This document shows positions 41,275 through 53,866 of a stretch of 64,000 bases of DNA, piece after piece. Position 1 is the first letter of the stretch; every line of letters starts with the position of its first letter. Made by a program: the position numbers and the translations under genes. The DNA lies in assembly GCA_016205975.1 (NCBI GenBank), contig JACQSK010000007.1, positions 5,328 through 69,327 on the forward strand, written 5' to 3'. The notes under the pieces are model-generated. The model saw nothing but the letters and a program-made list of their open reading frames with translations. It was not told where the DNA came from and ran no database searches. This DNA is from Candidatus Uhrbacteria bacterium. GTDB taxonomy: Bacteria > Patescibacteriota > Patescibacteriia > UBA9934 > GWF2-40-263.

Positions 41275-41682
41275 ATGCCAACAAAAAAAAAGCCGGCCGC
41301 GGCCGCGCCTGAGAGCGTTCCAGCAAAACCGGTTGCGAAAAAGAAGATCGCGAAAAAATCCAGCAAGCCCACAGCCGCCAAAAAACAAACGCTGGTTCTG
41401 GACAATGCGCCGGTCCTCATGCAAGAGACGGAAGTGCACAAGCCCGACCACACCATCGAGGTGCATCGCAAGTTCGTCCTGGTGGGCACTTGCTCCCAGT
41501 GCGAGCACATGCCCATGCACGCCGGCAGGCTCGTGGCGCTTCTCTCGGTGGTCATCGCCGTCTTGTCCGTCATGCTCATCGCAAAGTCCTCCCCCATCGA
41601 CTTCAGCCAGTTCCAATTCAGCTTTGCCCAGCAGGAGGAATTACCTCAATCCGATTCCGCATTAACAGGAGGCTCTCGCTAA
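41275..41682 (+). CDS. hypothetical membrane protein with Lys/Ala/Pro-rich N-terminus
   Basis: 135 aa; histone-H1-like basic N-terminus (PTKKKPAAAAPESVPAKPVAKKK) followed by one TM helix. Confidence 0.45.
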   Translation: MPTKKKPAAAAPESVPAKPVAKKKIAKKSSKPTAAKKQTLVLDNAPVLMQETEVHKPDHTIEVHRKFVLVGTCSQCEHMPMHAGRLVALLSVVIAVLSVMLIAKSSPIDFSQFQFSFAQQEELPQSDSALTGGSR

Positions 41683-41684
41683 CT

Positions 41685-42290
41685 ATGAAACGTTTCGCTT
41701 TTGCGCTCGCGGGCGCGCTCATGCTCTTGGGAGCAGGCTGTTCCCAGCCGGCTCAGGAGGCATCTGAAATCACCTTTACCTATCCCGACACTGTGGCAGA
41801 AGAAACACCAGAGGTCCTCTGGACATTCCCAGGAACGCTTCCTGATGAGCAGATCGCTGGGAAACAAATCCGCATCACGACCGAGAAAGGCGACATCGTG
41901 TTTGAATTGTTTGAGGACACGGCCCCTATGACCGTTTCTAACTTCGTGTACCTGACCACCGGCGGTTATTACGATGGTCTCGCCTTCCATCGCCGTGAGG
42001 AAGGGTTCGTGATTCAAGGCGGGGATCCCAACGGGGATGGCACAGGCGGGCCTGGATATGATTTTGCCGATGAGCTCGACGATGCGTATGCGTATGAACG
42101 CGGGATCGTCGCGATGGCCAACCGCGGCCCGGACACGAACGGCTCCCAGTTTTTCATCATGCTGGACGACACGCCGCTGCCTAAGGCCTACACGATTTTT
42201 GGCCGCGTGACAGAGGGCCTGGACGTGGTCGATGAGATCGTCGTGGGAGACGTGATGGGGCGCGTGACGGTAGAAGATCGACAGCCATAA
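41685..42290 (+). CDS. ppiB: cyclophilin-type peptidyl-prolyl cis-trans isomerase lipoprotein
   Basis: Lipobox LLGAGCS. Cyclophilin motifs FHRREEGFVIQGGDP and GSQFFI. Confidence 0.85.
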   Translation: MKRFAFALAGALMLLGAGCSQPAQEASEITFTYPDTVAEETPEVLWTFPGTLPDEQIAGKQIRITTEKGDIVFELFEDTAPMTVSNFVYLTTGGYYDGLAFHRREEGFVIQGGDPNGDGTGGPGYDFADELDDAYAYERGIVAMANRGPDTNGSQFFIMLDDTPLPKAYTIFGRVTEGLDVVDEIVVGDVMGRVTVEDRQP

Positions 42291-42291
42291 T

Positions 42292-43419
42292 ATGTTCACG
42301 CAACGCAGGGTCGAGATTCTCGTCCCTGCGTTTTTAGTTTGTCTGGTCGCTGTGCCATTTGTGGCGGGGTGGGTGGTTTCTGGGAGAGCTCTTACGGAAT
42401 CGGATAGGACGTATTTGACCGATAGGACCTATGAAGAGGACCGTTCGTCGGACCACACGCCTCTGCCAGAGGAAGTCCGCGGTCTGTATTGGACGGCCGC
42501 CACGGCCCTGTCCTCGCGCGCGGACGAGCTGCTTGCGTACATGAAGGCGTCCGGTCTCAACACGGTCGTGATCGACGCTAAGTACGACAATGGTGTCGTG
42601 GCGGCATTTCCGTCGTCCTTGTTCACGACCCTCTACGACGCAGGCATCTACCGCATCGCGCGCGTTGCGGTCATGCGTGACGGCGCGTTTGCGCTCGCCC
42701 ATCCCGAGGTCGCCCTGCGCACGGCCTCGGGCGCGCTCTGGCAAGACAAGGTCGGCTCGCTCTGGGTGGATCCAGCCGCGCCCGACGTGACACAGGAGGC
42801 CATCGCGCTCGGCCGCGCGCTCTACGCCGCGGGGTTCGACGAGATCCAGTATGACTATGTGCGTTTCGCCTCCGACGGCGAGGTGCGTGCGATCGTGTAT
42901 CCGATCTGGGACGGCACAACGTCCAAGGCCGAAGTCATGCAGCGTTTCTTCAGGACGGTGGGCGGCGCGCTTGGGGTAGACGGCATTCCGGTTTCGTTCG
43001 ATCTTTTCGGCATGACGTTCTGGTCTTTGGGTGACTTCAATATCGGCCAGCGCCTGGTTGACGTGCTGCCGTATGCCGACTGGGTGTCACCTATGGTGTA
43101 TCCGTCGCATTATCCAGACGGCTTCAAGGGATACGAGAATCCGGCTGAGGCGCCCTATCAGATCGTGAAGCAGTCGCTCGATGAGGGCTTGCGGCTGATG
43201 CACGGCGTGTATGCCGGCTCGGATGAAGCACTCGCCTCGCACTTCCGTCCCTGGCTGCAAGATTTCGATATCGGCGCCGTGTACACGAGCGACTACATCG
43301 AAGCACAAATCGCCGCCGCCCGCGACACCGGCGCTTCCGGCTGGCTCTTGTGGAACGCGCGCAACGTGTACGAGGCGGCGGATTACAGAGAAAGTCGCGT
43401 CAGTTCCGAGACTTTTTGA
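42292..43419 (+). CDS. putative glycoside hydrolase (DUF4015/GHL10-like TIM barrel)
   Basis: N-terminal TM helix plus the NTVVIDAKYDNG ... GFDEIQYDYVRF pattern of the putative glycosyl hydrolase family. Assigned from memory. Confidence 0.55.
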   Translation: MFTQRRVEILVPAFLVCLVAVPFVAGWVVSGRALTESDRTYLTDRTYEEDRSSDHTPLPEEVRGLYWTAATALSSRADELLAYMKASGLNTVVIDAKYDNGVVAAFPSSLFTTLYDAGIYRIARVAVMRDGAFALAHPEVALRTASGALWQDKVGSLWVDPAAPDVTQEAIALGRALYAAGFDEIQYDYVRFASDGEVRAIVYPIWDGTTSKAEVMQRFFRTVGGALGVDGIPVSFDLFGMTFWSLGDFNIGQRLVDVLPYADWVSPMVYPSHYPDGFKGYENPAEAPYQIVKQSLDEGLRLMHGVYAGSDEALASHFRPWLQDFDIGAVYTSDYIEAQIAAARDTGASGWLLWNARNVYEAADYRESRVSSETF

Positions 43420-43448: not shown

Positions 43449-43525
43449 CTCATAGGCGGCAGCCACTGCTGCCGCGTTCGAGTGCGCGTACGCTTCGGAA
43501 GCGGGAGCAGTGGCTCCCGCCTCTC
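43449..43525. repeat. ~75-bp structured intergenic repeat, copy 1
   Basis: ATAGGCGGCAGCCACTGCTGCCGCGTTCGAGTGCGCGTACGCTTCGGAAGCGGGAGCAGTGGCTCCC. Two hairpins (gcggcagc/gctgccgc and cgggag/ctcccg) whose loop-proximal halves are mutually complementary. ~90% identical to copy 2. Confidence 0.6.
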
Positions 43526-43593: not shown

Positions 43594-45042
43594 CTACCCG
43601 AGGTAGGACCGGCACTCGGTGATCATCCGGCCCGTGCGCGCGTACCAGCGCAGGAGGGAGCCTTCCAGACGCAACCGGTAGATCGCGTGGCTGCCCTTGC
43701 CCAGTGAGGACGACGTCGGGTCACTGGTGAACACGCCCCAACAGCGGGGATGATCGAAGCCGCTCGCCACGGCATACACGTGCTTGCCGTGGGTCACGAC
43801 CTGGCGGAGGTCGAACACGCATCCTGCTGCGCCTTCGATTTCACTCCAGGTGAACGACCCGTTCTCCTCTCGACGTCCGACCACGAGGAGTTGGCCGCCG
43901 CCCATCAGAGAGACCGAGGCGCGGAAGCCGTCTTGCATGAGGAGGAAGTCGTTGATGTGCGTTGCCAGGACGTGCTGCCAGCGCACACGCGTGTCACCCA
44001 AGTCGTCGTATTCCAGGATCTGGAGGTTCGTGGTCGTGTCCTTGCAGATGAGGAACGAGCCGATCTCCTTCACGGGAGTCGTGGGGAGCTTGAAGGACAG
44101 TTGGCTACTGTCTGGCAGGACGACCAGGGTGCGATCGCCGCACCGCGTGCGGACGCTCCCATTGCCCGTGAGGACCGGATCCCCGCTGACCTCGCCCAAG
44201 TCCTCCCAGGCACTTGCGTGCAGGGGGAGCTTCAGGAGCTTCCCGTCGACGCGAGCGAACACCGAGCCGTTCCACGTGATGACCGGCGCGGAGATGGACG
44301 CGGCCTGGAGCTCCTGGTCATTGTTCACGATCAGCCAGCGTCCCTCGCCACGGGAGATGACCACCGCGATGATGACGTGACCGAAGTCTTCGGCCGTGTA
44401 CCCGTGCACGGCGGCCTGGACGCGACAGTCGGGCTCCCACCAGGGGATGGACAGCTCCTCCCAATCGGTCGTGACGTGAGGCCTGGCATCGAGGCAGCGG
44501 ATCAATCCGCTGCCGCTCCACACGCACAGCGTGTTGCCCGTGAGGACGGCACCGATCGGATCGGAGAATCGACGTGACCAAGGGTAATCGTAACCCTCAC
44601 TCAGGATCGATTGATCGAGGTGCCAGATGAACGGATCGCGAGAGAGGATGGTTCTCTCAAGTGCATATCCGTCCGTGTCGAACACCTGTCCCTCGTTGGT
44701 CGTGACCAGAGGGACTCCATCGACGCAGGAGAACGCGCCTCCCACGACTCGATCCGCCTTCTGCTCCCACGGGTTGAGTCCAGTCCACACGTGGCCGTCC
44801 TTGGTGAGGCCCGCGCAGACATCCTCTCCGCGCTTGTTCATGACGCACACGGTCGTGAGGTCGAGGCTCTTGGGCAGAAGGTTGCCCCACTGCGTCTCGA
44901 ACACCTCGCCCGGCGTGAGCATCCGGAAAGGATCCTCCATGAACCGTTCCAGCAGTTCGACGGGGAGAGTACCCTCCTCGATCGCCTCCCAGACTTCCCT
45001 GCCTACACCGGCCAGACGCCGTGCTTCCTTGGTGAGTACCAT
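43594..45042 (-). CDS. hypothetical repeat-rich (beta-propeller-like?) protein, GC3-rich ORFan
   Basis: 482 aa, strong GC3 bias, recurring Gly/Trp-containing blocks. No family recognised. Confidence 0.5.
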   Translation of the reverse strand: MVLTKEARRLAGVGREVWEAIEEGTLPVELLERFMEDPFRMLTPGEVFETQWGNLLPKSLDLTTVCVMNKRGEDVCAGLTKDGHVWTGLNPWEQKADRVVGGAFSCVDGVPLVTTNEGQVFDTDGYALERTILSRDPFIWHLDQSILSEGYDYPWSRRFSDPIGAVLTGNTLCVWSGSGLIRCLDARPHVTTDWEELSIPWWEPDCRVQAAVHGYTAEDFGHVIIAVVISRGEGRWLIVNNDQELQAASISAPVITWNGSVFARVDGKLLKLPLHASAWEDLGEVSGDPVLTGNGSVRTRCGDRTLVVLPDSSQLSFKLPTTPVKEIGSFLICKDTTTNLQILEYDDLGDTRVRWQHVLATHINDFLLMQDGFRASVSLMGGGQLLVVGRREENGSFTWSEIEGAAGCVFDLRQVVTHGKHVYAVASGFDHPRCWGVFTSDPTSSSLGKGSHAIYRLRLEGSLLRWYARTGRMITECRSYLG

Positions 45043-45182
45043 TGCTTCTCCTGTTCACCACTGTGTCAGGCGGTATGCCTGACAGCTTCGGGTGAACCTG
45101 GGCTTGTGCCCAGTGGATGGAGCCTAACAGATATTGTTTGTATTGAAAAGGGCTTACGTCCCATGTCCTTCCTATACCGTCC

Positions 45183-45260
45183 GTATAGGCGGCAGCCCCT
45201 GCTGCCGCGTTTGGATGCGCGTCCGCATCGGAAGCGGGAGCAGTGGCTCCCTCGGCCGTG
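45183..45260. repeat. ~75-bp structured intergenic repeat, copy 2
   Basis: ATAGGCGGCAGCCCCTGCTGCCGCGTTTGGATGCGCGTCCGCATCGGAAGCGGGAGCAGTGGCTCCC, a direct repeat of copy 1 on the other side of the 482-aa gene. Confidence 0.6.
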
Positions 45261-45298
45261 CCCGTCCTACGGGCGAGGCGGGCGAGGCCCGCCTATGA

Positions 45299-45333
45299 AT
45301 AAAAAACCCACCGTCGCTAAAGCTTCGGTGGGC
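45299..45333 (-). terminator. intrinsic terminator downstream of the 204-aa gene
   Basis: On the minus strand, hairpin cccaccg-aagctttagcga-cggtggg followed by tttttt. Near-identical copy at 46205..46238. Confidence 0.6.
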
Positions 45334-45354
45334 GCGTCAGGCAGTATGGATTCT

Positions 45355-45969
45355 TCAGGCCACGAGCCTGAAGTCGTTGTATCCACTCCCGCCGTCGAAG
45401 CACAGGGAGTGGAACCCATCCGGCGCGTACGAGTCGCGAGTGTTCTGGAGGTACCGCGCCGCGATGCGCTGAAGCGCCGGAAGACGTTCGTGCGGTACGA
45501 GTCGGTTCATGTCCTCGACGAACAACGCGACCTCATCCTGATCCCACCCGATGAACGACAGGAGCGACACGAACGCGTACTCGGGTCGGTACACATTCGC
45601 TCCGTAGCGATAGCCGTACTTGGTCAGCACCCCGTCGCGCTTCGCGAACTGGCGCCCTTCCGGCCAGCGGCGGATGTAGGTCATGAAGCCGTAGTACTCC
45701 ATGGCCCACAGGTAGCTGTGGACGCTGAAGTTCGCGTCGATGTCACCCGTCTTCATGGGGTCCATGTGGTTGTACGCGCGGATTCCGAGCCGCCACATGA
45801 GGTGGTACGGAGTAACCGCCTGCGGCGTGTCGAGCACCCCGTCACGGATGACCGATGCCACCGTGACCGTCGGCGATGCGGTGGTGCGCTCGATCACGGC
45901 CTCGGAAAGGTTGGGACAGGTCGGCTGGGCGTGACGCACGCCGAGCTTCTTTTTGAAGGCAGAGTCCAT
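45355..45969 (-). CDS. hypothetical protein (GC3-rich ORFan)
   Basis: Start set at Met119 (MDSAFKKK...) of ORF 45355..46323, preceded by an AAGGAAG RBS. Aromatic-rich. No family recognised. Confidence 0.5.
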   Translation of the reverse strand: MDSAFKKKLGVRHAQPTCPNLSEAVIERTTASPTVTVASVIRDGVLDTPQAVTPYHLMWRLGIRAYNHMDPMKTGDIDANFSVHSYLWAMEYYGFMTYIRRWPEGRQFAKRDGVLTKYGYRYGANVYRPEYAFVSLLSFIGWDQDEVALFVEDMNRLVPHERLPALQRIAARYLQNTRDSYAPDGFHSLCFDGGSGYNDFRLVA

Positions 45970-46204
45970 TGTTCTTCCTTCCCCGCGTCGCGCGGGGCGT
46001 TGGTGGTGTTGGTCGCGAACCTGTTGTCTCGCCGTTTTTGTGAACGGCGCGAAATCGTTTGGAAGAATAGAAACGATTCCGATCCCATAGATATCTTCAC
46101 CTGCTCTTTGAATTCGTTGAATCCCAAGAAAACAGCATGCAAGATAACGGCTCACTCTAGCCGTTTTTTGTGATTTTGTCAAACGTCTATGAATGAAAAA
46201 ACCC

Positions 46205-46238
46205 ACCGTCGCTAAAGCTGAGGTGGGCGTGGCCTGAC
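46205..46238 (-). terminator. intrinsic terminator downstream of the 138-aa gene (repeat of 45299..45333)
   Basis: ATGAATGAAAAAACCCACCGTCGCTAAAGCTGAGGTGGG, the same hairpin-plus-T-run module. Confidence 0.55.
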
Positions 46239-46247
46239 CGGTGAGGG

Positions 46248-46661
46248 TCAAGCAGATTCGGCGTCGATGACTCGCAGGGTTGCCTTGCCCGTGATCTGGC
46301 ACAGGAGCTCCCAGGTCTGGCACGCGTTATCGGGGCACGAGTAGATGGTCGTGTCGGTCTTGGCGCCTTGCGTTTGCACCGCGACGGGTTTGCCGCAGTG
46401 CGTGCAATTGAAGTGGCCGCGGGCGTTCCGACGCCGACGGTTCCACTCCAGCCACCAGGCCGTGAGCTCGAGCGTCGCCTGTGCGTCATCGGGCGCGCCC
46501 GTAAGATCCGCCCCCAAAGGGAGCTCATGCAGGCCCCGAGCAACGATCCACGAGAGGATCGGCAGGAGGCTCTCACGCAATGGCTCTGGCAGCTCATCGG
46601 GCAGGAGCGTGTGATGGAGCTCACCCACGAGATGCGTCCAGTCGATGCCGTCGGGGTCCAT
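46248..46661 (-). CDS. hypothetical protein with C-terminal zinc-ribbon
   Basis: Start set at Met22 of ORF 46248..46724. C-terminal CTHCGKP ... CPDNAC pair. Confidence 0.45.
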   Translation of the reverse strand: MDPDGIDWTHLVGELHHTLLPDELPEPLRESLLPILSWIVARGLHELPLGADLTGAPDDAQATLELTAWWLEWNRRRRNARGHFNCTHCGKPVAVQTQGAKTDTTIYSCPDNACQTWELLCQITGKATLRVIDAESA

Positions 46662-46747
46662 CTGGATCACGAGGGAAAAAGAGGGTTGAGGGGCGCGGTC
46701 AGACAAGGAACTCCTCCAAGACAAGAGACCTCTGCTATAATAGCACC

Positions 46748-48148
46748 ATGCATCCCGCTATTACAGAGAAGACCTTTTACCAATACCTCAAGTGCCCCAA
46801 CTGGGTGTATTTAGATTTACACGCGTTTGAACCCAGACCGCACGAAGCACTTCTCTCTCGTCTGCAAGACGACGGCCTGCTGCCGGAGAAAGAACGCGAG
46901 CTGCTCACCGACCGTCAGGACACAGCCGAGGTGACGGCCGAGGACCCGGACGAGGCTTTCACTCAGACGCTCGCTTTCATGCGCGAGGGGCGCCACACCA
47001 TTTATCACGGCGTCCTCGTCGACAAGCACTGGGTGGGACATCCGGACATCTTGGAGCGCGTGGAGGGCCAGTCGCGCCTGGGGCATTATTATTATGTGGC
47101 GGCGGATTTGAAGCGCACGCGGTTCGTGCGCGACGATCATAAGTTCCAGGGTTGTTTTTACGCTGAGCTTCTCGAGCGCGTGCAGGGCGTGAAGCCGGTG
47201 CAAGGCTATGTCATGACGCCGGACAGGGAAGTCATCCCGTATCTCATTGAGGAGTTTGAAGCCCAGTACGAGATCACGCTCACCGAGATTGAAAAAATCG
47301 TCGCCGGCAAACGGCCCGCGCATTTTGTGACCTCTGGCTGCAAGCAGTCACCATGGTTTGCTGAGTGTCGCAGCGAGTCGGAAGCGTGCGACGACCTCTC
47401 GCTCTTGAACCGCGTGTGGCGCGAGGAAGTGCATCGGCTTGAGGAGGCTGGCGTCACGACCATCGGCGCGCTCGCGCTCAGGAGCGTGCCAGACCTTGAA
47501 CGGCTGTGCCCGGAGGTGAGCTCCACGCGTTTGGAAATTATGCGCGACCAGGCGATCGCCATCAAAGAAGGCCGTCACCTCATTCGGGGGCACGTGCAGA
47601 TGCCGGAAGCGCGCGTGGAATTATTTTTCGACATTGAGAGCGACCCGCTGCGCGACTTTGATTATCTCCTGGGTGTCCTGGAGGTGACGAGCCATGGCGA
47701 GCAGTACCATTCCTTTTTTGCCGCCGCGCCGGAGCAAGAGGCGCAGATGTGGAAAGAGTTCGTGGCGTTCATCGAGGGTCATATGGACGCGCCCATCTAT
47801 CACTATGGCTGGTTTGAGCGCGAGGTGGTGGAGCGGTTTGCCGCCCGCTACGGCATTTCCGAAATCGCGCGCCAGGCGCTGCAGGAGAATATGCTCGACC
47901 TGCTCGATCTCATCCGGCCCGCCGTGATTTTTCCGCTCTCGTTTTATTCGCTTAAAGACTTGGGCGCCTACATCGGGTTCCAGTGGAGGAGCGAGGACGC
48001 CTCGGGCGCCAACTCGGTCCTGTGGTTTGAGGAGTGGCTCAAAAAGAAAACCCCCAAGCTCCTGCAGAAGATCCTTGAGTATAATGAAGATGACGTGCGC
48101 GCCACGCATCGCCTGCAGCGGTGGGTGAGGGAACACGCCAGTTTATGA
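46748..48148 (+). CDS. RecB-family nuclease, TM0106/COG2251-like (PD-(D/E)xK plus RNase-H-like domain)
   Basis: N-terminal FYQYLKCPNWVYL Cys motif, PD-(D/E)xK-like GHPDIL ... YVAADLKR, C-terminal YHYGWFE ... EYNEDDVRATHRL. Start set at Met57 of ORF 46580..48148. Confidence 0.6.
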   Translation: MHPAITEKTFYQYLKCPNWVYLDLHAFEPRPHEALLSRLQDDGLLPEKERELLTDRQDTAEVTAEDPDEAFTQTLAFMREGRHTIYHGVLVDKHWVGHPDILERVEGQSRLGHYYYVAADLKRTRFVRDDHKFQGCFYAELLERVQGVKPVQGYVMTPDREVIPYLIEEFEAQYEITLTEIEKIVAGKRPAHFVTSGCKQSPWFAECRSESEACDDLSLLNRVWREEVHRLEEAGVTTIGALALRSVPDLERLCPEVSSTRLEIMRDQAIAIKEGRHLIRGHVQMPEARVELFFDIESDPLRDFDYLLGVLEVTSHGEQYHSFFAAAPEQEAQMWKEFVAFIEGHMDAPIYHYGWFEREVVERFAARYGISEIARQALQENMLDLLDLIRPAVIFPLSFYSLKDLGAYIGFQWRSEDASGANSVLWFEEWLKKKTPKLLQKILEYNEDDVRATHRLQRWVREHASL

Positions 48149-48471
48149 AATCGCCGCGCCTCATCCTCCTGCTTGCAGCCCTCGTGGTCATCGGGGCCGT
48201 CCTCGTGAACGTCGCGAGTAACTCCGACGACAGAGCGTCTTCGGTTCGTCCAGACGCGCCTCAGGGTGACGGCGCGCGCGCGGTCCTCACGGAGAGTTCC
48301 TGTACAACCGCGGGCGGTATCTGGAACGCCTGCGGTTCTGCCTGCCGCACCACGCCCGACGCGCCGTGTATCGAGGTGTGCGTGGAGTACTGTCAGTGCG
48401 CTTCAGATACGCAATGTCCTACCGGCCTTACCTGCGGCGACTTCGTTGACGGAGTCGGCGTCTGCCTATGA
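48145..48471 (+). CDS. small secreted Cys-rich protein
   Basis: 108 aa; signal peptide then a mature region with 12 Cys (CTTAGGIWNACGSACRTTPDAPCIEVCVEYCQCASDTQCPTGLTCGDF). Start overlaps the nuclease stop by 4 nt. Confidence 0.5.
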   Translation: MKSPRLILLLAALVVIGAVLVNVASNSDDRASSVRPDAPQGDGARAVLTESSCTTAGGIWNACGSACRTTPDAPCIEVCVEYCQCASDTQCPTGLTCGDFVDGVGVCL

Positions 48472-49334
48472 AAGCCATTCGACTTTTTGTCACAAGCATG
48501 ATCCTCCTCATCGCCCTGGGCGCGGCGTTGTATTCGTCTCGCGTGGACGTGATGGAGTGGATTCGGGAGGCAACGGCGCCTGTGTTGCCGGAGGCGGTGG
48601 AGTATGAGGCGGTAGAAGAGACTCGTGATGATTCGGTAGACCCAAACTTTAGCCTGGATGAAGCTGCGGAAGTGATCGATGAAACTCCATCCGTCCCATC
48701 CGTACCATCCGTACCATCCGACCCATCGCCCACACAGGACGCCTCAGACCAAACAGCACCGACCGCCATCAACCTCGCCGTTCCCTTCACGCCCCAAGCG
48801 CCGCATGCCGACTGGGGAGAGCCGTACAAAGAAGCGTGCGAGGAGGCGAGCGTGTACATGGTGCGTCGGTTCTACGAAGGCACGCCCGAGGGTCTCATGA
48901 ATGCCGATCAGGCAGATGCCGACCTCTTGCAGATCGTGGCGTTTGAGCGCGAGCTGTTCGGCTTCTATGAAGACACCACCGCCGAACAGACAGCCACGCT
49001 CGCCGAGCTCATGTTCGGGTACGCAGGTGAGCTCATCGAGAACCCAACCGTAGACGACATCAAGACCCACTTGATCTTGGGCCATCCCGTGATCGTCCCG
49101 GCCGCCGGACGCGAGCTCGGCAATCCGTACTTCACTGCGCCCGGGCCGCTCTACCACATGCTCGTCATCCGCGGTTACACGCAAGAGAATCAGTTCATCG
49201 TAAACGATCCTGGCACCTCCCGCGGCGAGGCGTACCTCTACGACTTTGACACGCTCATGAATGCGATGCACGATTGGAACAACGGCGGCGAGATCACGGA
49301 AGGAAGGAAGGTCGTGCTCGTACTTACGCCGTAA
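48468..49334 (+). CDS. membrane-anchored peptidase C39-like (papain-like) domain protein
   Basis: TM helix, Pro/Ser-rich linker, then VPFTPQAPHADWGEPYKEACEEASVYMV, which resembles Peptidase_C39_2 (VPxxxQ ... C.xAS), with a downstream His. Overlaps the upstream stop by 4 nt. Confidence 0.5.
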   Translation: MKAIRLFVTSMILLIALGAALYSSRVDVMEWIREATAPVLPEAVEYEAVEETRDDSVDPNFSLDEAAEVIDETPSVPSVPSVPSDPSPTQDASDQTAPTAINLAVPFTPQAPHADWGEPYKEACEEASVYMVRRFYEGTPEGLMNADQADADLLQIVAFERELFGFYEDTTAEQTATLAELMFGYAGELIENPTVDDIKTHLILGHPVIVPAAGRELGNPYFTAPGPLYHMLVIRGYTQENQFIVNDPGTSRGEAYLYDFDTLMNAMHDWNNGGEITEGRKVVLVLTP

Positions 49335-49338
49335 CCCT

Positions 49339-49809
49339 ATGGACTATTTTCTCGGTGGTTCTCTTGGAGGCTTAGTCGCATTCGTGTTTGCGATTCCCGC
49401 GATTCTCTTGGAGGTCACGCAAAAAGGCGGGGTGAGCGAGGCGCCGCTCGTCATCGACGTGAAGACGATTTTTGGATTCAAGATTCGTGACAAGCATGAG
49501 GTCTTTTTGATCGGCCTTTTGCTCCACATCGTAATCGGTTTTCTCTTTGGTCTCATCTACATCATCTTCGTGAAGCGCGGCTGGCTGTTCGTGACGCACG
49601 CGCCGTACACGTTTTTGTCGCTGCTGGTCTACGCGATCCTGAGCTGGATCGTCGCCAACCTGGTCGTATACCCGGCGCTGGGTCTGGGAGCCTTCGGCCT
49701 CAAGGAAGGCCGTCACGTCTGGATGGAAACGATTGTGTCGCACCTGATCTTGGGCGTGAGCCTGTGGCTTTTGGTGCAGTATTATCAACCTCTCTTTTTT
49801 GGCACATGA
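49339..49809 (+). CDS. hypothetical 4-TM membrane protein
   Basis: Start set at Met27 of ORF 49261..49809; four hydrophobic helices. Confidence 0.5.
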   Translation: MDYFLGGSLGGLVAFVFAIPAILLEVTQKGGVSEAPLVIDVKTIFGFKIRDKHEVFLIGLLLHIVIGFLFGLIYIIFVKRGWLFVTHAPYTFLSLLVYAILSWIVANLVVYPALGLGAFGLKEGRHVWMETIVSHLILGVSLWLLVQYYQPLFFGT

Positions 49810-50999
49810 CTCCGTCGCTTTCCGTTTCCCAATATCTCGAGCTCGTAAACGTTTCCCTCGGGCAGATGCCAAGGGATTTTGTGATCGAGGGTGAGGTGTC
49901 GGATTTTCGCGTGGCGCAAGGCAAGTGGGTCAGTTTTGATTTGAAGGATGAAAAAGATCAGGCGCTCTTAAAGTGTTTCATGACTGCCTGGCAGTTGAAG
50001 ACGGCGATCGAAGACGGCATGCGCGTGCAAGTCAAAGGCGCTCCGAAGATTTATGAACGCTTTGGGACGTTTAAGCTCAACGTGACGGACGTCGAGCCGG
50101 TGGGAGAAGGAGCGCTGAAGCGCGCCTACGAACTCTTGAAGAAAAAACTGGAGAGCGAGGGACTGTTCGATCTGTCACGCAAGCGCTCGCTGCCAAGGTT
50201 CCCAGAGCGCATCGGGCTCATCACCTCGCGCGACGCAGCCGCGTACGGCGACTTTTTGCGCATCTTGAACAACCGCTGGAGCGGCGTGGAGATCCTCTTT
50301 CATCAGGTCCATGTCCAAGGCCGCGAAGCCGTGCCGGACATCCTCGAAGCCTTTGCCGCTCTTGGCTCCCTCCATCGTCCTGATGTCATCGTGCTGACCC
50401 GAGGCGGCGGGGGACTCGAAGACCTGCAAGCGTTCAACGACGAGCGCATCGCCCGCGCCATCTACGCCTCGCCGATTCCCGTCGTCTGCGCCGTGGGCCA
50501 TGAGCGCGATGAGTCTCTGTGCGATCTCGTCGCCGACGTCCGCGCCTCCACGCCCAGCAACGCGGCCGAGCGAGTTGTCCCCTCGCGCGAGGACGTGCGC
50601 TACGAGGTGCAGACGCTGTGCGATCATCTCTTCACAAAGATGGAGGACGCCCTGCGCGAGCGCGTAACGGTGATCGATGAGGCGACGCGCCGCGTGAGTT
50701 TCCTGTTAGAGAGACAGAAGGAACGACTGGCGCGCGTGTCTGAAGATCTGGTCTCCGGCCCGGAGTTCTGGTTCTCGCGGCTCCGAGAGCGGCTTGCTTC
50801 CCACGAGCGCGTCCTCAAAGAACTCAACCCAAAACGGGTTCTCGCCCGCGGCTATAGCATCGTACGTTCTGGAGGCCGCGTGCTCACAAGCGTGTCGACC
50901 CTTGAAGTGGGGAGCCTGATCCAGGTACAATTTGCGGCAGGTTCAGCGCAGGCGCAGGTGCGTCGCGTAAATGAGAAAGGCCAGCAGACGCTCGTATGA
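49806..50999 (+). CDS. xseA: exodeoxyribonuclease VII large subunit
   Basis: OB-fold N-terminus and ExoVII catalytic core (LTRGGGGLEDLQAFNDE). Start set at Met15 of ORF 49764..50999, overlapping the upstream stop by 4 nt. Confidence 0.85.
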   Translation: MTPSLSVSQYLELVNVSLGQMPRDFVIEGEVSDFRVAQGKWVSFDLKDEKDQALLKCFMTAWQLKTAIEDGMRVQVKGAPKIYERFGTFKLNVTDVEPVGEGALKRAYELLKKKLESEGLFDLSRKRSLPRFPERIGLITSRDAAAYGDFLRILNNRWSGVEILFHQVHVQGREAVPDILEAFAALGSLHRPDVIVLTRGGGGLEDLQAFNDERIARAIYASPIPVVCAVGHERDESLCDLVADVRASTPSNAAERVVPSREDVRYEVQTLCDHLFTKMEDALRERVTVIDEATRRVSFLLERQKERLARVSEDLVSGPEFWFSRLRERLASHERVLKELNPKRVLARGYSIVRSGGRVLTSVSTLEVGSLIQVQFAAGSAQAQVRRVNEKGQQTLV

Positions 51000-51211
51000 C
51001 ATCGAAAAAAACCGTTCTCAATTTTTCAAAGGCGTTTGAGGAGCTTGAGGGAATCACGCGTTGGTTTGATTCTCAAGAGCAGCTCGATCTGGACAAAGGT
51101 TTGAAACAGTTTGAGCGCGGGCTTGAACTCGCCAGCGAGCTCAAGAAAAAACTCTCAGAAGTCGAAAACAAGGTTGAAGAGATCAAAAAGAAATTTGCCG
51201 ACCCCCTATGA
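50996..51211 (+). CDS. xseB: exodeoxyribonuclease VII small subunit
   Basis: 71-aa helical protein (FEELEGITRWFDSQEQLDLDKGLKQFERG) overlapping the xseA stop. Confidence 0.85.
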   Translation: MTSKKTVLNFSKAFEELEGITRWFDSQEQLDLDKGLKQFERGLELASELKKKLSEVENKVEEIKKKFADPL

Positions 51212-51561
51212 CGTACATCCTCTTTCGTTGGATCGTGAACGCTCTCGCCCTGCTCCTGGTCGCCAACGTCGTCCCGGGCTTCGGCGTCGCCTCGCTGTAC
51301 ACCGCGCTCATCGCCGCTCTCGTCTTGGGGCTCGTGAACGCGCTCGTGCGCCCGCTGTTTTTTATCCTGACGCTTCCCATCACGATCCTGACCCTCGGCC
51401 TGTTTACCTTCGTTGTGAACGCCTTCATGATCTGGCTCGTCTCCACGATCGTGAAAGGTTTTGTCGTGGAAGGGTTCACCCCCGCCCTCCTCGCCGCTCT
51501 CTTGCTCTGGATGATCTCCCTCACAACCAACTGGCTTATTAAACAAGCAAAGGAATCGTAA
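51208..51561 (+). CDS. DUF360 / phage-holin-4_2-like 4-TM membrane protein
   Basis: WIVNALALLLVANVVPGFGV ... LVNALVRPLFFILTLPITILTLGLFTFVVNAF pattern of the 4-TM holin-4_2 family. Confidence 0.6.
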   Translation: MTYILFRWIVNALALLLVANVVPGFGVASLYTALIAALVLGLVNALVRPLFFILTLPITILTLGLFTFVVNAFMIWLVSTIVKGFVVEGFTPALLAALLLWMISLTTNWLIKQAKES

Positions 51562-51585
51562 AATCGCCGCTGGGCGATTTTTCTT

Positions 51586-52293
51586 ATGCCCCATGCCAAC
51601 GCTCTGCAACCTTCCACGCTCGTCATCTCCGTCGGCGGTTCGCTCGTGGTTCCCAATGGCGGGATCGACGTTGAGTTTCTCAAAGACTTCCAGGGGCTGA
51701 TTCACGCGCACTTCAAGCGCGGTTGGCGGTTCGTCGTGGTGGTCGGCGGCGGAGGGACGGCGCGCCACTATCAAGAAGCCGCGCGAGGCGTGGGCAAGCT
51801 CACGCGCGACGACCTCGACTGGCTGGGGATCCACTCCACGCGGTTGAACGGCCACCTCATGAGGACCGTGTTGCGCGACGTGGCGCACCCCATCATGATC
51901 AAAGACCCGACCGGCTCGCTGCGCCAGTGGACCAAGCCCGTCTTGGTCGCGGCCGGATGGAAGCCGGGATGGTCTACCGACTACGTGGCCGCGCGTCTGG
52001 CCAAGCGTCTCAAAAGCAAGCTGGTCGTGAACCTCTCCAACGTCGATTACGTCTATGACAAAGATCCGCGCAAGCACAAAGACGCCGAGGCCATCTGCAC
52101 CATTTCGTGGAAGGCGTTTCGCCGCCTCGTCGGCAACACGTGGGACCCGGGCATGAATGTCCCGTTTGATCCGGTCGCTTCACGCCTGGCGCACCACTCA
52201 GGAATCCGCGTGGCGATTTTGAATGGGAAGAATATCTCGAATCTTGAAGGGCTTCTGACTGGCGAACGGTTTATTGGAACCGTCATCGGTTGA
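51586..52293 (+). CDS. pyrH: uridylate kinase (archaeal/short type)
   Basis: Amino-acid-kinase fold (VISVGGS ... VVVGGGGTARHY). Confidence 0.8.
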   Translation: MPHANALQPSTLVISVGGSLVVPNGGIDVEFLKDFQGLIHAHFKRGWRFVVVVGGGGTARHYQEAARGVGKLTRDDLDWLGIHSTRLNGHLMRTVLRDVAHPIMIKDPTGSLRQWTKPVLVAAGWKPGWSTDYVAARLAKRLKSKLVVNLSNVDYVYDKDPRKHKDAEAICTISWKAFRRLVGNTWDPGMNVPFDPVASRLAHHSGIRVAILNGKNISNLEGLLTGERFIGTVIG

Positions 52294-52363
52294 CGAAAAT
52301 GGAAAACAGGTTCATGATGGCCGGTCCCGAATCGTCGGGAGTTCCATCCGTCAGGAGGACGCC

Positions 52364-53242
52364 ATGCAGGTAGACTATGTCATCGTGAGTGCTCCCTCTG
52401 TACGGGGCACGCCGAGTGAAGATGCCTATACGATCGAGGGGGGAGGCGGAGGTATTCCGTTTTTTCTGGCGATCGCGGACGGACACGGAAACGAGGTGGA
52501 CGAAGAGGGGACGCTCGTCAAGAAGTCGCCGACCGTCGCGAGGTTTGCCCGGCGTGTCGCCGAAGGGTTGCGCGAGCAGTTTGCACGCTTTCCCGATCCG
52601 GCGTTGTTTACAGACACCTTTGACGCCGTGGCCGAGCAGGTAGACGCAGAGTTTCTTCCGCTGACACAGCACCTTCGCCCGCCAGGGTCGTTGGATGTGG
52701 GAGCGGTTGCGATCTGCCTCACGGTGGTGGACGGCAAGATCCACCTCGCGCAGACAGGGGACAGTCGCCTCTACGCGGGGTGCACGCGCGGCAGCGGGTT
52801 CACGCTTCTCACGCGCGACCACGACGGACGCAACCTGGGGGAGAGGCGGCGCCTGTATCCTCTCATCGAGGAACAGCGTTTTGCCATCCTCCCTTTTTCC
52901 GACGTCCTGTCGCCGGTTCCTCCGCGGCTGTTTCGACAGACGGAGCGGGGCTGGTATGGGGGGCTGATCCCCACGCGCACGTTCGGCGATTGGGAGTACC
53001 AACCGGCCGTGATCCATACCCCTGAGGTTCAGACCGTTGAGCTCGCCTCTGTGCCTGCGGGAACGCTGTTTGCTCTGTGCTCGGATGGAGGCAATCGCAC
53101 CGTCGAGGAGGTTCTGGGACGGTTGCGCGGACGCACGGATCAGGGCGCGCTCCTGGAAGCGGCAGAGCTGACGCGAGCGCGCGTGAACGGCCCTTCGGAC
53201 GACGTGACCATCATCTACTTCCGCGCGCAGCCGTCTTTCTAA
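52364..53242 (+). CDS. PP2C-family Ser/Thr protein phosphatase
   Basis: LAIADGHGN, TGDSRLY, CSDG and DDVTII metal-binding motifs. Start set at Met31 of ORF 52274..53242. Confidence 0.8.
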   Translation: MQVDYVIVSAPSVRGTPSEDAYTIEGGGGGIPFFLAIADGHGNEVDEEGTLVKKSPTVARFARRVAEGLREQFARFPDPALFTDTFDAVAEQVDAEFLPLTQHLRPPGSLDVGAVAICLTVVDGKIHLAQTGDSRLYAGCTRGSGFTLLTRDHDGRNLGERRRLYPLIEEQRFAILPFSDVLSPVPPRLFRQTERGWYGGLIPTRTFGDWEYQPAVIHTPEVQTVELASVPAGTLFALCSDGGNRTVEEVLGRLRGRTDQGALLEAAELTRARVNGPSDDVTIIYFRAQPSF

Positions 53243-53257
53243 GGCGGCTGTTTTTTT
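53228..53257 (+). terminator. intrinsic terminator after the PP2C gene
   Basis: Hairpin cagccg-tctttctaagg-cggctg followed by ttttttt. Confidence 0.55.
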
Positions 53258-53329
53258 CACGGGATCTTCTACGTTTGTTAGTGTCTCCTGGCTGGAGGTC
53301 TCACGCCCGACCCAAACCAGAAGTTCCTG

Positions 53330-53866
53330 ATGCCATTCCTACAGCGTCCGCCGTCCCTCACGTTCACGGTTGTTCCCTTGGACGATGGTCAGCCATCGTT
53401 TAAAGCCGGTTGCGGACACACCATCTGGAGGATGGAGCGTCTGGTGCTTCACGGCAAGACGGTATGCAAGAGCAATCCGAATTTTTCGGCGCTACCCACC
53501 GGCCCTGACGGGTACCGTGCCATCATCGCACCCAAGCAGTGCATACTCTGCCAGTTCGCGGAACCATTCGCGGCCGCGATCGAATGTGCCTGCTGCCATC
53601 ACGTCATCTTTCGCGGTGACCCCGTGAGCGCCTACTTTTTCACAGGCGAGACTCCCCCCAAGGGATTCGACGAAGCGCGCGCCACGCGCACGCGCAACGG
53701 CTTCGTCGGCTGCATGGGATGGGAGTGCTGCCCTACGAGTGGATTCTTCGCAGGTCACTGGACCACGGAGGGAATCCTCACTCCCTTCTCAACCGGTTCC
53801 CTCGCCGCGCAAGCGCTCGTCGAGGGGAACATAGTCGTCTCTGACATAGAGGCCTTGAAGGGTTAA
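53330..53866 (+). CDS. hypothetical Cys-rich protein (uncertain)
   Basis: 178-aa ORF with 13 Cys (CILCQ ... ECACCHH ... CMGWECC). Only plausible ORF in a 1.1-kb gap. Weak RBS. Confidence 0.3.
   Translation: MPFLQRPPSLTFTVVPLDDGQPSFKAGCGHTIWRMERLVLHGKTVCKSNPNFSALPTGPDGYRAIIAPKQCILCQFAEPFAAAIECACCHHVIFRGDPVSAYFFTGETPPKGFDEARATRTRNGFVGCMGWECCPTSGFFAGHWTTEGILTPFSTGSLAAQALVEGNIVVSDIEALKG

What the first reader, a model, noticed from the sequence alone, without database searches (positions are those of the whole stretch)
46748..49335. Overlapping operon: RecB-like (TM0106-family) nuclease, Cys-rich secreted mini-protein, C39-like peptidase
Start and stop codons overlap by 4 nt at both junctions, implying coupled expression. 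The middle gene encodes a 108-aa signal-peptide protein with 12 Cys in ~60 residues (a toxin/bacteriocin- or inhibitor-like knot). The downstream gene is a membrane-anchored papain-like Peptidase_C39_2-type domain. The upstream gene is a PD-(D/E)xK plus RNase-H-like nuclease. This is an unusual combination that may form a secreted-peptide maturation or defence/competition module. The operon continues into xseA-xseB.
Basis: partly seen in the sequence, partly recalled or inferred. Interest (0 to 1): 0.55.

Follow-up and report, generated by a model that had tools for sequence, protein, structure and literature searches.

The report
Surface protease with inhibitor-like partner
In a conserved housekeeping operon of an uncultured groundwater bacterium (Candidatus Uhrbacteria), a membrane-tethered cysteine protease sits next to a small ten-cysteine protein that resembles animal "TIL" protease inhibitors. 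The two probably work as a pair on the cell surface, while the nuclease upstream is most likely only a neighbour.

Summary
The three genes exist and both junctions are ATGA overlaps. The mini-protein has 10 cysteines, not 12. A DUF2938-like membrane gene lies between the peptidase and xseA.

The window is Candidatus Uhrbacteria (CPR/Patescibacteria). The trio is the front of a nine-gene same-strand run, 46748-53242. A conserved TGnTATAAT lies 6 nt before the nuclease ATG, so the transcript is probably leaderless. Five of the eight junctions overlap by 4 nt, so overlap is not special to the trio.

The whole block is syntenic in about 45 related contigs. Gene order alone therefore proves no module.

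Three things tie the Cys-rich gene specifically to the peptidase:
- They stay adjacent, in swapped order and without the nuclease, in L027, L057 and L061.
- They are fused into one ORF in L015.
- Both are N-terminally anchored extracytoplasmic proteins.

The peptidase keeps invariant Gln/Cys/His/Asp, has a papain fold, and resembles endolysin and pseudomurein-peptidase domains. The Cys-rich domain belongs to an unannotated prokaryotic family (771 clusters, also in DPANN archaea). It is related to the TIL protease-inhibitor domain (hhalign probability 93.5%).

The bacteriocin and defence readings are not supported. The most likely reading is a surface cysteine peptidase plus a TIL-like regulator. 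The function itself is inferred, not shown.

The parts
46733..46741 (+). Extended -10 promoter element TGcTATAAT. It ends 6 nt before the ATG of the nuclease gene, so the mRNA is predicted to be leaderless.
   Evidence: Read. The same TGnTATAAT (or TATACT) sits at the same distance from the ATG in about 25 of 32 orthologous loci. The generic two-hexamer scan did not list it because it has no -35 box.
46748..48148 (+). TM0106-family RecB-like nuclease: a Cas4-like PD-(D/E)xK N-terminal half plus an RNase_H_2 C-terminal half. It is cytoplasmic and is the first gene of the operon.
   Evidence: TIGR03491 at 1.7e-94; PF13482 at 6.7e-36; Cas4 TIGR00372 at 3.3e-08, below its cut-off. No hydrophobic segment.
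48145..48471 (+). 108-aa membrane-tethered Cys-rich protein: TM or signal-anchor helix (residues 6-24), variable disordered linker (25-50), and a TIL-like ten-cysteine domain (residues 53-107, nt 48301-48465).
   Evidence: 10 invariant Cys in 65 homologues with spacing C-x9-C-x3-C-x7-C-x3-C-x3-C-x-C-x5-C-x5-C-x9-C. In the AF2 model residues 51-108 score pLDDT 87-97 in block means. hhalign against TIL gives probability 93.5%. No Pfam, NCBIfam, PADLOC or PHROG hit.
48468..49334 (+). 288-aa membrane-anchored Peptidase_C39_2 papain-fold cysteine peptidase: TM helix (residues 2-23), disordered acidic/Pro-rich linker (~50-95), and catalytic domain (100-288). Codons: Cys124 at 48837-48839, His230 at 49155-49157, Asp247 at 49206-49208.
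   Evidence: PF13529 at 7.5e-10. Q110, C124, H230, N246 and D247 are invariant in 56 homologues. AF2 pLDDT 87.7. Foldseek: 3ERV 8e-7, PeiR 8Z4N 4e-5, xylellain, interpain, SpeB, staphopain. phrog_10051 endolysin at 1.3e-5.
49339..49809 (+). 156-aa DUF2938-like multi-pass membrane protein. It follows the peptidase/Cys-rich pair in both gene arrangements and may be a third member of the envelope unit.
   Evidence: PF11158 at 4.4e-07 (30.1 bits, just under the 31.4 cut-off). Several hydrophobic segments. Adjacent in L027 and L061 as well. Insertions of up to 1.4 kb occur between it and the peptidase in L001, L003, L004 and L010.
49806..51211 (+). xseA (49806-50999) and xseB (50996-51211), the two exodeoxyribonuclease VII subunits. 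Both starts are ATGA overlaps.
   Evidence: TIGR00237 at 8.8e-112; TIGR01280 at 1e-10.
51208..53251 (+). Rest of the same-strand run: Phage_holin_4_2-family membrane protein (51208-51561), archaeal-type UMP kinase pyrH (51586-52293), PP2C phosphatase (52274-53242), and the first strong terminator-like hairpin (53227-53251).
   Evidence: PF04020 at 8e-33; TIGR02076 at 1.7e-55; PF00481 at 5.7e-13. The 11-bp stem followed by a T-run is the strongest terminator-like site in 45000-53500.

Best explanation
The three genes open a conserved, probably leaderless, translationally coupled housekeeping operon of Candidatus Uhrbacteria. Its order is nuclease, Cys-rich protein, C39_2 peptidase, DUF2938-like membrane protein, xseA, xseB, holin-4-family protein, pyrH, PP2C.

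Within it, the functional unit is the pair Cys-rich protein plus peptidase, possibly with the DUF2938-like protein. It is not the trio.

Both partners are held on the outer face of the cytoplasmic membrane by an N-terminal helix and a flexible linker. The peptidase is an active papain-fold cysteine peptidase of the PF13529 type. It most likely cuts peptide bonds in the cell's own wall or surface layer, because the same domain serves as an endolysin catalytic domain and resembles pseudomurein endoisopeptidase.

The Cys-rich protein carries a disulfide-type ten-cysteine domain related to TIL protease inhibitors. It is made from the same message by stop/start overlap, which would favour similar amounts of the two proteins. 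It most likely binds the peptidase as a regulator or inhibitor, or less likely as a targeting subunit, and so keeps a potentially autolytic enzyme in check.

The TM0106 nuclease is a cytoplasmic DNA-processing enzyme. It is co-transcribed, and fits thematically with xseAB, but it is not mechanistically linked to the pair.

Shown: gene structure, families, catalytic residues, fold, topology prediction, synteny, the swapped arrangement, the fusion, and the TIL relationship. Inferred: physical interaction, inhibition, substrate, and disulfide formation.
For: Operon structure:
- ATGA overlaps.
- TGnTATAAT conserved 6 nt before the nuclease ATG in about 25 of 32 orthologous loci.
- No strong terminator before 53227.

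Linkage of the pair:
- The two genes are adjacent in 19 of 21 GTDB species loci. One of the other two is a distant lipoprotein (L028); the other is L025, where no peptidase ORF follows in the last 240 nt of the contig.
- They are adjacent in 22 of 24 closer metagenome loci; the other two contigs end right after the Cys-rich gene.
- Their open frames overlap or abut in every closer metagenome locus that holds both, and the four GTDB loci with uncertain peptidase starts leave no room for a gene; no inserted gene was seen, whereas insertions do occur between the peptidase and DUF2938.
- In L027, L057 and L061 the order is peptidase then Cys-rich, and no nuclease is present.
- In L015 a single 339-aa ORF reads TM + Cys-rich domain + C39_2 domain. 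The peptidase's own anchor is deleted and the frame is continuous.

Topology:
- One N-terminal hydrophobic helix in each protein, with basic residues in front.
- DPANN homologues carry a lipobox-like motif instead, so tethering is conserved.

Peptidase:
- Invariant Q110, C124, H230 and D247.
- Papain-fold matches, including 3ERV and PeiR.
- Endolysin PHROG match.
- PF13529 is listed as an endolysin catalytic domain of phages of Gram-positive hosts (PMC8223927).

Cys-rich domain:
- hhalign against five solved TIL inhibitors scores 35.8 (probability 93.5%). In 200 column shuffles the maximum was 24.8.
- P0289 matches this family's profile at 9.6e-14 and Pfam TIL at 8.6e-20.
- P0216 combines a Kazal inhibitor domain with two copies of this domain.
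- The shared motif WNxCGSAC also retrieved bona fide TIL domains, one inside an alpha-2-macroglobulin-like protein.
Against: - The nuclease-to-Cys junction is as tight as the Cys-to-peptidase junction in most loci. The whole block is syntenic, so much of the adjacency could be inherited gene order in one lineage.
- Only one fusion was found (L015), in a single MAG.
- The three swapped loci may come from one lineage. L027 and L061 encode the same protein.
- Most of the wider Cys-domain family has no C39 neighbour: 43 more distant metagenome loci and the DPANN loci L029 and L031. In L025 the Cys-rich gene follows an oxidoreductase instead.
- The window protein itself gets no Pfam TIL hit. TIL Cys4 is missing and the C-terminal half differs.
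- Foldseek found no significant PDB neighbour for the model, and no TIL structure appeared in the list.
- To my knowledge, known TIL inhibitors act on serine or metallo-proteases, not cysteine peptidases.
- No substrate evidence exists for any CPR PF13529 protein.
Confidence: 0.5

Rival explanations
1. Pure synteny. The three genes, and the Cys-rich/peptidase pair, are unrelated housekeeping genes packed together in a streamlined CPR genome. Overlaps and co-transcription reflect genome compaction only.
For: The whole 10-gene block, including pyrH, xseAB and cyclophilin, is conserved in the same order in nearly every related contig. 4-nt overlaps occur at five of eight junctions. Distant members of the Cys-domain family have no C39 neighbour.
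Against: The pair remains adjacent when the order is swapped and the nuclease is absent (L027, L057, L061). There is an in-frame fusion in L015. Both proteins share the same predicted compartment and tether architecture. No insertion was ever seen between them, whereas the next junction tolerates insertions.
Confidence: 0.25
2. Targeting subunit. The Cys-rich domain is a binding module for cell wall, a surface glycan or the host-cell surface. It positions the peptidase, like the cell-wall-binding domain of an endolysin, rather than inhibiting it.
For: The fusion in L015 has the order binding-like domain then catalytic domain. In other proteins the domain is fused to non-protease modules: Gmad2 + Germane, GH32N-like and DUF333. 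That pattern suits a general binding or scaffold domain. The weak top Foldseek hits are small carbohydrate-binding knots such as CBM1 (E about 0.7, not significant).
Against: The only significant similarity is to the TIL inhibitor family, and the domain co-occurs with a Kazal domain. No similarity to any known wall-binding domain reached significance.
Confidence: 0.15
3. Secreted-peptide maturation. The peptidase cleaves the Cys-rich precursor to release a bacteriocin- or toxin-like knot.
For: The C39 name is associated with bacteriocin leader cleavage. The product is small and Cys-rich. A conserved Gly-Gly (G57-G58) precedes the core. There are sub-threshold Pfam matches to 'YxzE-like putative bacteriocin'.
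Against: The match is to PF13529, not to the transporter-linked PF03412, and there is no ABC transporter in the operon. The peptidase domain is predicted to be extracytoplasmic. The Gly-Gly lies inside the folded domain, after invariant Cys53, and recurs in internal repeats of P0289. The YxzE matches cover the TM helix and linker at 13-20 bits against a cut-off of 40. The protein is a strongly conserved core gene that is tethered, by a lipobox-like motif in archaea. In L015 the domain is fused upstream of the enzyme.
Confidence: 0.06
4. Three-gene defence or competition module in which the nuclease acts together with the secreted pair.
For: The nuclease has a Cas4-like domain. Junctions are tight and the promoter is shared.
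Against: No PADLOC system matched, only weak Cas4 profiles. The locus is core synteny, not an island. The nuclease is cytoplasmic and the pair is extracytoplasmic. The pair occurs without the nuclease. No homologue was found in viral contigs.
Confidence: 0.03

Closest known systems
TIL domain (trypsin-inhibitor-like cysteine-rich domain, Pfam PF01826 / MEROPS I8; e.g. Apis AMCI 1CCV, Ascaris inhibitors 1ATA and 1EAI)
   Same: About 55 residues with ten cysteines. Shared core ...W-x-x-C-G-S-x-C ... C-x3-C-x3-C-x-C. Profile-profile match over 33 columns (probability 93.5%, well above shuffles). Linked through intermediate sequences that pass Pfam's TIL threshold. The C-x3-C loop that holds the reactive site in TIL inhibitors (own knowledge of 1EAI) corresponds to the nearly invariant C-I-E-V-C.
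   Different: Prokaryotic (CPR bacteria, DPANN archaea) and membrane-tethered. TIL Cys4 and its loop are absent, and an extra Cys appears in a different C-terminal half. The window protein does not reach the Pfam threshold. No inhibitory activity is known. The neighbouring enzyme is a cysteine peptidase, not a serine peptidase.
Peptidase_C39_2 (PF13529), e.g. the Bacillus anthracis 'putative C39-like peptidase' PDB 3ERV, and endolysin catalytic domains of this family
   Same: Pfam hit above threshold, papain fold, and conserved Gln/Cys/His/Asp. Match to an endolysin PHROG.
   Different: N-terminal membrane anchor plus a long disordered linker. It is a conserved chromosomal core gene of a CPR lineage, with a dedicated Cys-rich neighbour. 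The substrate is unknown.
Bacteriocin-processing C39 peptidase domains of ABC transporters (PF03412; ComA/LagD type)
   Same: Same papain-like clan, and the same family name in annotation.
   Different: Not fused to or next to an ABC transporter. Predicted outside the membrane rather than cytoplasmic. No double-glycine leader substrate. The Pfam match is to PF13529 only.
Operon-encoded cysteine protease plus dedicated protein inhibitor (staphopain/staphostatin, PDB 1PXV and 1Y4H). From own knowledge, also the secreted inhibitor IseA of Bacillus D,L-endopeptidases.
   Same: A papain-fold cysteine peptidase co-transcribed with a small protein proposed to restrain it. Staphopain appears among the structural neighbours.
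   Different: Staphostatin is a cytoplasmic beta-barrel with no cysteine knot. Here the partner is extracytoplasmic and TIL-like. Inhibition is untested.
Pseudomurein endoisopeptidase PeiR/PeiW (PDB 8Z4N, 8Z4H)
   Same: Structural neighbour of the catalytic domain (E 4e-5, TM-score normalised to the target 0.53). It is a cysteine peptidase that cuts cell-wall peptide cross-links.
   Different: Sequence identity is only 16-18%. It is a phage or prophage enzyme of methanogens with different accessory repeats.
TM0106-family RecB-like nuclease (TIGR03491)
   Same: Full-length match far above the cut-off.
   Different: Nothing unusual in the protein itself. Only its position as the first, leaderless gene of this operon is notable.

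Membership tests
TIL domain (PF01826 / MEROPS I8) | Match to the Pfam TIL model at or above the gathering score (24.5 bits) | tested here: not met
   The window protein has no hit even at E<=10. Seven of 65 family members hit below threshold (best E 0.37, 8-11 bits).
TIL domain (PF01826 / MEROPS I8) | Remote homology to solved TIL inhibitors at profile level | tested here: met
   hhalign gives probability 93.5%, E 2.2e-7 and score 35.8 over 33 columns. Reversed control scored 12.7. 200 column shuffles gave mean 11.1 and maximum 24.8. Bridging sequences P0289, L087 and L102 pass the Pfam TIL threshold.
TIL domain (PF01826 / MEROPS I8) | Ten cysteines in the canonical spacing (C1..C10 including the C3-x3-C4 pair) | tested here: not met
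   There are ten Cys, but Cys4 and its loop are absent and a different third Cys follows the C-x-C.
TIL domain (PF01826 / MEROPS I8) | Five disulfides with the 1-7, 2-6, 3-5, 4-10, 8-9 connectivity; protease inhibition through the C5-C6 loop | not testable with these tools
Peptidase_C39_2 (PF13529) | Pfam model above the gathering score | tested here: met
   40 bits against a cut-off of 24, residues 103-248.
Peptidase_C39_2 (PF13529) | Papain-like fold with catalytic Cys/His (plus Gln oxyanion residue and Asp/Asn) | tested here: met
   Q110, C124, H230, N246 and D247 are invariant in 56 homologues. The AF2 model (pLDDT 87.7) matches 3ERV at 8e-7 and other papain-fold peptidases.
Bacteriocin-processing C39 peptidase / double-glycine system | Peptidase domain fused to or encoded with an ABC exporter; cytoplasmic location | tested here: not met
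   No ABC transporter is present in the operon or in any syntenic locus. The N-terminal anchor is predicted to place the domain outside the cell.
Bacteriocin-processing C39 peptidase / double-glycine system | Substrate with an N-terminal double-glycine leader, cleaved to release the mature peptide | tested here: not met
   The N-terminus is a hydrophobic Sec-type anchor. The conserved GG lies inside the domain, after invariant Cys53. The YxzE 'bacteriocin' matches are sub-threshold and fall on the TM helix and linker.
TM0106-family RecB-like nuclease (TIGR03491) | Full-length match above the NCBIfam cut-off; Cas4-like plus RNase_H_2 halves | tested here: met
   317 bits against a cut-off of 97, residues 6-459. 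PF13482 at 6.7e-36. Cas4 profiles at 3e-8.
Known anti-phage defence systems (PADLOC-DB) | Match of the component proteins to a defence-system model set | tested here: not met
   Only weak Cas4 profiles matched the nuclease. Nothing matched the Cys-rich protein, the peptidase or the DUF2938-like protein.
Functional gene pair (Cys-rich protein + peptidase) | Adjacency retained after rearrangement, and a fusion in at least one genome | tested here: met
   Swapped order without the nuclease in L027, L057 and L061. A single-ORF fusion in L015. Caveat: few independent events.

The most novel reading that the evidence does not exclude
The ten-cysteine protein is the founding example of a prokaryotic TIL-type protease regulator. 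On this reading it is a dedicated, stoichiometrically co-translated inhibitor of a membrane-tethered PF13529 cysteine peptidase that remodels the envelope of CPR bacteria. The same unannotated domain family (771 clusters at 50% identity) would then be a surface-protein module shared by the two ultrasmall episymbiont radiations, CPR bacteria and DPANN archaea.
Probability: 0.2. Interest if true: 0.65.

Novelty: new variant of a known kind. Interest (0 to 1): 0.42.

Why it matters
CPR bacteria and DPANN archaea are tiny, mostly uncultured cells, and how they build and remodel their envelopes is largely unknown. If this reading is right, three things follow.

- It supplies a concrete pair of surface proteins whose interaction can be tested: a papain-fold peptidase and a TIL-like partner. 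The pair is conserved through the Uhrbacteria-like contigs examined here.
- It extends the TIL protease-inhibitor fold, which the papers retrieved here discuss only for animals, to a sizeable prokaryotic family missing from Pfam.
- It corrects a tempting misannotation. 'C39 peptidase' next to a small Cys-rich secreted protein looks like a bacteriocin system but is not one.

The conserved TGnTATAAT placed 6 nt before the start codon is also a clean example of a probable leaderless operon start in this lineage.

Tried and rejected
- **Direct annotation of the Cys-rich protein.** Pfam, NCBIfam, PADLOC and PHROGs gave nothing.
- **First homologue search.** The word-index search found only 10 relatives, which wrongly suggested a tiny family. 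The profile searches corrected this.
- **Solved structures.** The family profile against PDB sequences gave only chance-level matches, to BK-channel beta subunits. Foldseek of the AF2 model against PDB gave no significant neighbour.
- **'YxzE-like putative bacteriocin'.** These sub-threshold matches map to the TM helix and linker, and I rejected them.
- **Double-glycine leader.** Rejected because the GG lies inside the domain.
- **Phage origin.** No relative was found in IMG/VR contigs.
- **RNA elements.** No Rfam family and no tRNA anywhere in the window.
- **Literature.** Searches for C39 in Patescibacteria and for bacterial TIL domains found nothing specific. One Microgenomates genome paper merely lists a secreted C39 peptidase.
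- **More fusions.** No further fusion was found among the 325 fetched proteins.


Full report
**What is there.** The window is from a Candidatus Uhrbacteria genome (CPR/Patescibacteria). The 108-aa product is 100% identical to NCBI protein HY631_01495 of a Candidatus Uhrbacteria MAG. Three + strand genes lie at 46748-48148, 48145-48471 and 48468-49334. Both junctions read ATGA, so stop and start overlap by 4 nt.

- Gene 1 is a TM0106-family RecB-like nuclease (TIGR03491 at 1.7e-94; RNase_H_2 at 6.7e-36; sub-threshold Cas4 matches).
- Gene 3 is a Peptidase_C39_2 protein (PF13529, 40 bits against a cut-off of 24).
- Gene 2 has no hit in Pfam, NCBIfam, PADLOC or PHROGs.

Two details of the observation need correction. 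The mini-protein has 10 cysteines, not 12. The operon does not pass directly into xseA, because a DUF2938-like multi-pass membrane protein gene (49339-49809) lies between them.

**The operon.** The same-strand run continues as DUF2938-like, xseA (49806), xseB (50996), a Phage_holin_4_2-family protein (51208), archaeal-type pyrH (51586) and PP2C (to 53242). ATGA overlaps recur at 49806, 50996 and 51208. The first strong terminator-like hairpin is at 53227-53251. The 4-nt overlaps are therefore the rule in this run, not a mark of the trio.

Directly upstream of the nuclease gene is TGcTATAAT (46733-46741), ending 6 nt before the ATG. The same extended -10 element sits at the same distance in about 25 of 32 orthologous loci. 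This implies a conserved, leaderless transcript start at gene 1.

**Conservation.** I examined contexts of homologues through three routes:
- protein look-ups;
- a scan of one genome per GTDB species (21 loci);
- a metagenome scan (68 loci).

I mapped the neighbours with tblastn and HMMs. In essentially all Uhrbacteria-like contigs the order is (cyclophilin, DUF4015, variable genes), nuclease, Cys-rich, C39_2, (occasional insertions), DUF2938-like, xseA, xseB, holin-family, pyrH. Equally, the trio is no better conserved than neighbours with plainly unrelated functions, so gene order alone says little.

**What separates the pair from the nuclease.**
- In L027, L057 and L061 the peptidase gene comes first and the Cys-rich gene follows. 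There the Cys-rich gene is either stand-alone or extended by Gmad2 + Germane domains. The DUF2938-like gene comes next, and no TM0106 nuclease is present in the flanks.
- In L015 one continuous 339-aa ORF encodes the anchor, the Cys-rich domain, a short linker and the C39_2 domain. The peptidase's own anchor is deleted.
- In every closer metagenome locus that holds both genes, their open frames overlap or abut. In the GTDB set the junction is equally tight in most loci; in four (L016, L022, L023, L026) the peptidase start is uncertain, but the gap of roughly 25 to 230 nt leaves no room for a gene. The next junction (peptidase to DUF2938) carries insertions of up to 1.4 kb, for example a Gp49/HTH (HigB/HigA-like) toxin-antitoxin pair in L001.
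- The nuclease has no hydrophobic segment. The other two proteins share one architecture: basic N-terminus, one hydrophobic helix, a disordered acidic linker, then the domain.

Caveats apply. Only one fusion was found. The swapped loci may represent few independent events. In L025 the Cys-rich gene follows an oxidoreductase, with no peptidase ORF in the remaining 240 nt.

**The peptidase.** Q110, C124, H230, N246 and D247 are invariant in 56 homologues, so the second refutation criterion (loss of the Cys/His pair) is also not met. The AF2 model (pLDDT 87.7) has a TM helix (2-23), a disordered stretch (~50-95) and a confident domain (100-288).

Foldseek places the domain among papain-fold enzymes: 3ERV (Bacillus anthracis C39-like, 8e-7), the Alr0975 acyl-enzyme, pseudomurein endoisopeptidase PeiR (4e-5), xylellain, interpain, SpeB and staphopain. 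It also matches an endolysin PHROG (1.3e-5). PF13529 is catalogued as an endolysin catalytic domain in phages of Gram-positive hosts (PMC8223927). A cell-wall or surface-protein peptidase is therefore the best guess. The substrate is inferred, not shown.

**The Cys-rich protein.** All 65 aligned homologues have exactly ten Cys, with spacing C-x9-C-x3-C-x6-11-C-x3-C-x3-C-x-C-x5/7-C-x5/11-C-x9-19-C. The AF2 model is confident for residues 51-108 (block-mean pLDDT 87-97), with a TM helix at 4-24. Foldseek finds no significant solved neighbour.

The motif G-G-x-W-N-x-C-G-S-A-C ... C-I-E-V-C-V-x-Y-C-E-C recalled the TIL inhibitor domain, so I tested that. Five solved TIL sequences were recovered or verified from the PDB. 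hhalign of the domain profile against them gave probability 93.5%, E 2.2e-7 and score 35.8 over 33 columns. A reversed control scored 12.7, and 200 column shuffles gave a mean of 11.1 and a maximum of 24.8.

Independent links point the same way:
- A full HMMER scan of 1.84 billion representatives found 771 relatives (167 at E<=1e-10).
- Among them, P0289 (seven repeats, 9.6e-14 to this profile) matches Pfam TIL at 8.6e-20.
- P0216 carries a Kazal inhibitor domain plus two copies of this domain.
- The shared DNA pattern also retrieved bona fide TIL domains, including one in an alpha-2-macroglobulin-like protein.

Against full membership, the window protein does not reach the Pfam TIL threshold. 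TIL Cys4 and its loop are missing, and the C-terminal third differs. I therefore call it TIL-like: a divergent prokaryotic relative, not a member in the Pfam sense.

**Wider family.** The domain occurs as stand-alone tethered proteins in Patescibacteria. It also occurs as lipobox-type small proteins in DPANN archaea (for example Candidatus Bilamarchaeum, P0185). There are fusions to Gmad2 + Germane, GH32N-like and DUF333 modules. These distant members are not next to C39_2 genes. The pairing is thus a feature of the Uhrbacteria-like clade, not of the domain family as a whole.

**Mechanism proposed.** One leaderless mRNA starts at the nuclease gene, and downstream genes are translated by termination-reinitiation at ATGA overlaps. 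The Cys-rich protein and the peptidase are inserted with N-in/C-out topology and float on flexible linkers in the wall zone. The peptidase cleaves wall or surface peptides. The TIL-like partner is made from the same message, which would favour similar amounts of the two proteins, and binds the peptidase to restrain or direct it. Operon-encoded inhibitors of papain-fold enzymes are a precedent (staphostatin; IseA from my own knowledge). The nuclease and xseAB act on DNA in the cytoplasm and are merely co-transcribed. Binding, inhibition, substrate and disulfide formation are all inferences.

**Rejected readings.**
- *Bacteriocin maturation.* The Pfam family is the wrong one (PF13529, not PF03412). 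There is no ABC exporter, no double-glycine leader, and the enzyme is predicted to be extracytoplasmic. The conserved GG lies inside the fold. The 'YxzE bacteriocin' matches are sub-threshold and fall on the TM helix and linker.
- *Defence module.* There is no PADLOC system. The locus is core synteny. No homologue was found in viral contigs.

**Verdict.** The interesting part is narrower than proposed: a conserved surface peptidase paired with a previously unannotated TIL-like protein. The finding is a new variant of known kinds rather than a new kind of system. Function remains untested, so interest is moderate.

Noticed in passing
window 46733-46750, and orthologous loci (e.g. L008, L010, L013, L044, L047): An extended -10 element, TGnTATAAT, sits exactly 6 nt before the ATG of the nuclease gene. 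It is conserved in about 25 of 32 orthologous loci, with no room for a Shine-Dalgarno sequence, so this looks like a conserved leaderless operon start in Uhrbacteria.
   Followed up: partly
window 43452-43518 and 45185-45251; 45301-45334 and 46196-46229: Two pairs of hairpin-containing direct repeats (67 nt at 91% identity; 34 nt at 94%). They bracket minus-strand hypothetical genes (43594-45042, 482 aa; 45355-46323, 322 aa) that have no Pfam or PHROG hit. This is the variable region between DUF4015 and the nuclease; related genomes carry other genes there, such as a 536-aa gene in L005 and L006. The repeats could be REP-like elements or terminators. Their role is unexplained.
   Followed up: partly
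L001 7198-7807; L003 1999-2322; L004 7255-8133; L010 3338-4789: The junction between the peptidase and the DUF2938-like gene is an insertion hot spot in relatives. It holds a Gp49/HTH (HigB/HigA-like) toxin-antitoxin pair in L001 and unannotated genes elsewhere. The window has only a 4-nt gap there.
   Followed up: no
L029 5001-5345, L031 5001-5342; proteins P0180, P0182-P0185, P0216: DPANN-type archaea (e.g. Candidatus Bilamarchaeum) carry a lipobox-type version of the same ten-Cys domain, with the signature CECGGIAGF. It lies next to BofA-, SIMPL- or YdjM-like genes rather than a peptidase. P0216 combines a Kazal domain with two copies. The same subtype also appears next to a C39_2 gene in contig L057.
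   Followed up: partly
L087 2-4741: A metagenome ORF of 1580 aa or more resembles alpha-2-macroglobulin: a TED domain with a CGCFEQ thioester-like motif and a bMG10 domain. It carries an embedded bona fide TIL domain (Pfam 6e-7), which would be one protease-trapping protein carrying a second inhibitor module.
   Followed up: no
window 51586-52293: The UMP kinase is of the archaeal type. TIGR02076 (pyrH_arch) scores 188 bits, above its cut-off of 158. The bacterial pyrH model scores only 55 bits against a cut-off of 244.
   Followed up: no
window 51208-51561, and all syntenic loci: A 117-aa Phage_holin_4_2-family membrane protein (8e-33) is a conserved core gene overlapping the xseB stop by 4 nt. 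It is 76-91% identical across most Uhrbacteria-like loci (about 50% in the most distant ones), so it is unlikely to be a phage holin here.
   Followed up: no
window 41490-43419: The genes just upstream also encode envelope proteins: a cyclophilin with a ~125-aa N-terminal extension, and a DUF4015 putative glycosyl hydrolase with an N-terminal hydrophobic anchor. The neighbourhood therefore mixes several extracytoplasmic proteins with DNA-repair and nucleotide-metabolism genes.
   Followed up: no
L025 1849-3722: In one Uhrbacteria MAG (nzgw368) a 141-aa paralogue or orthologue of the Cys-rich protein overlaps by 4 nt with an upstream FAD-dependent oxidoreductase-like gene instead of the nuclease. 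No peptidase ORF follows in the last 240 nt of the contig.
   Followed up: partly
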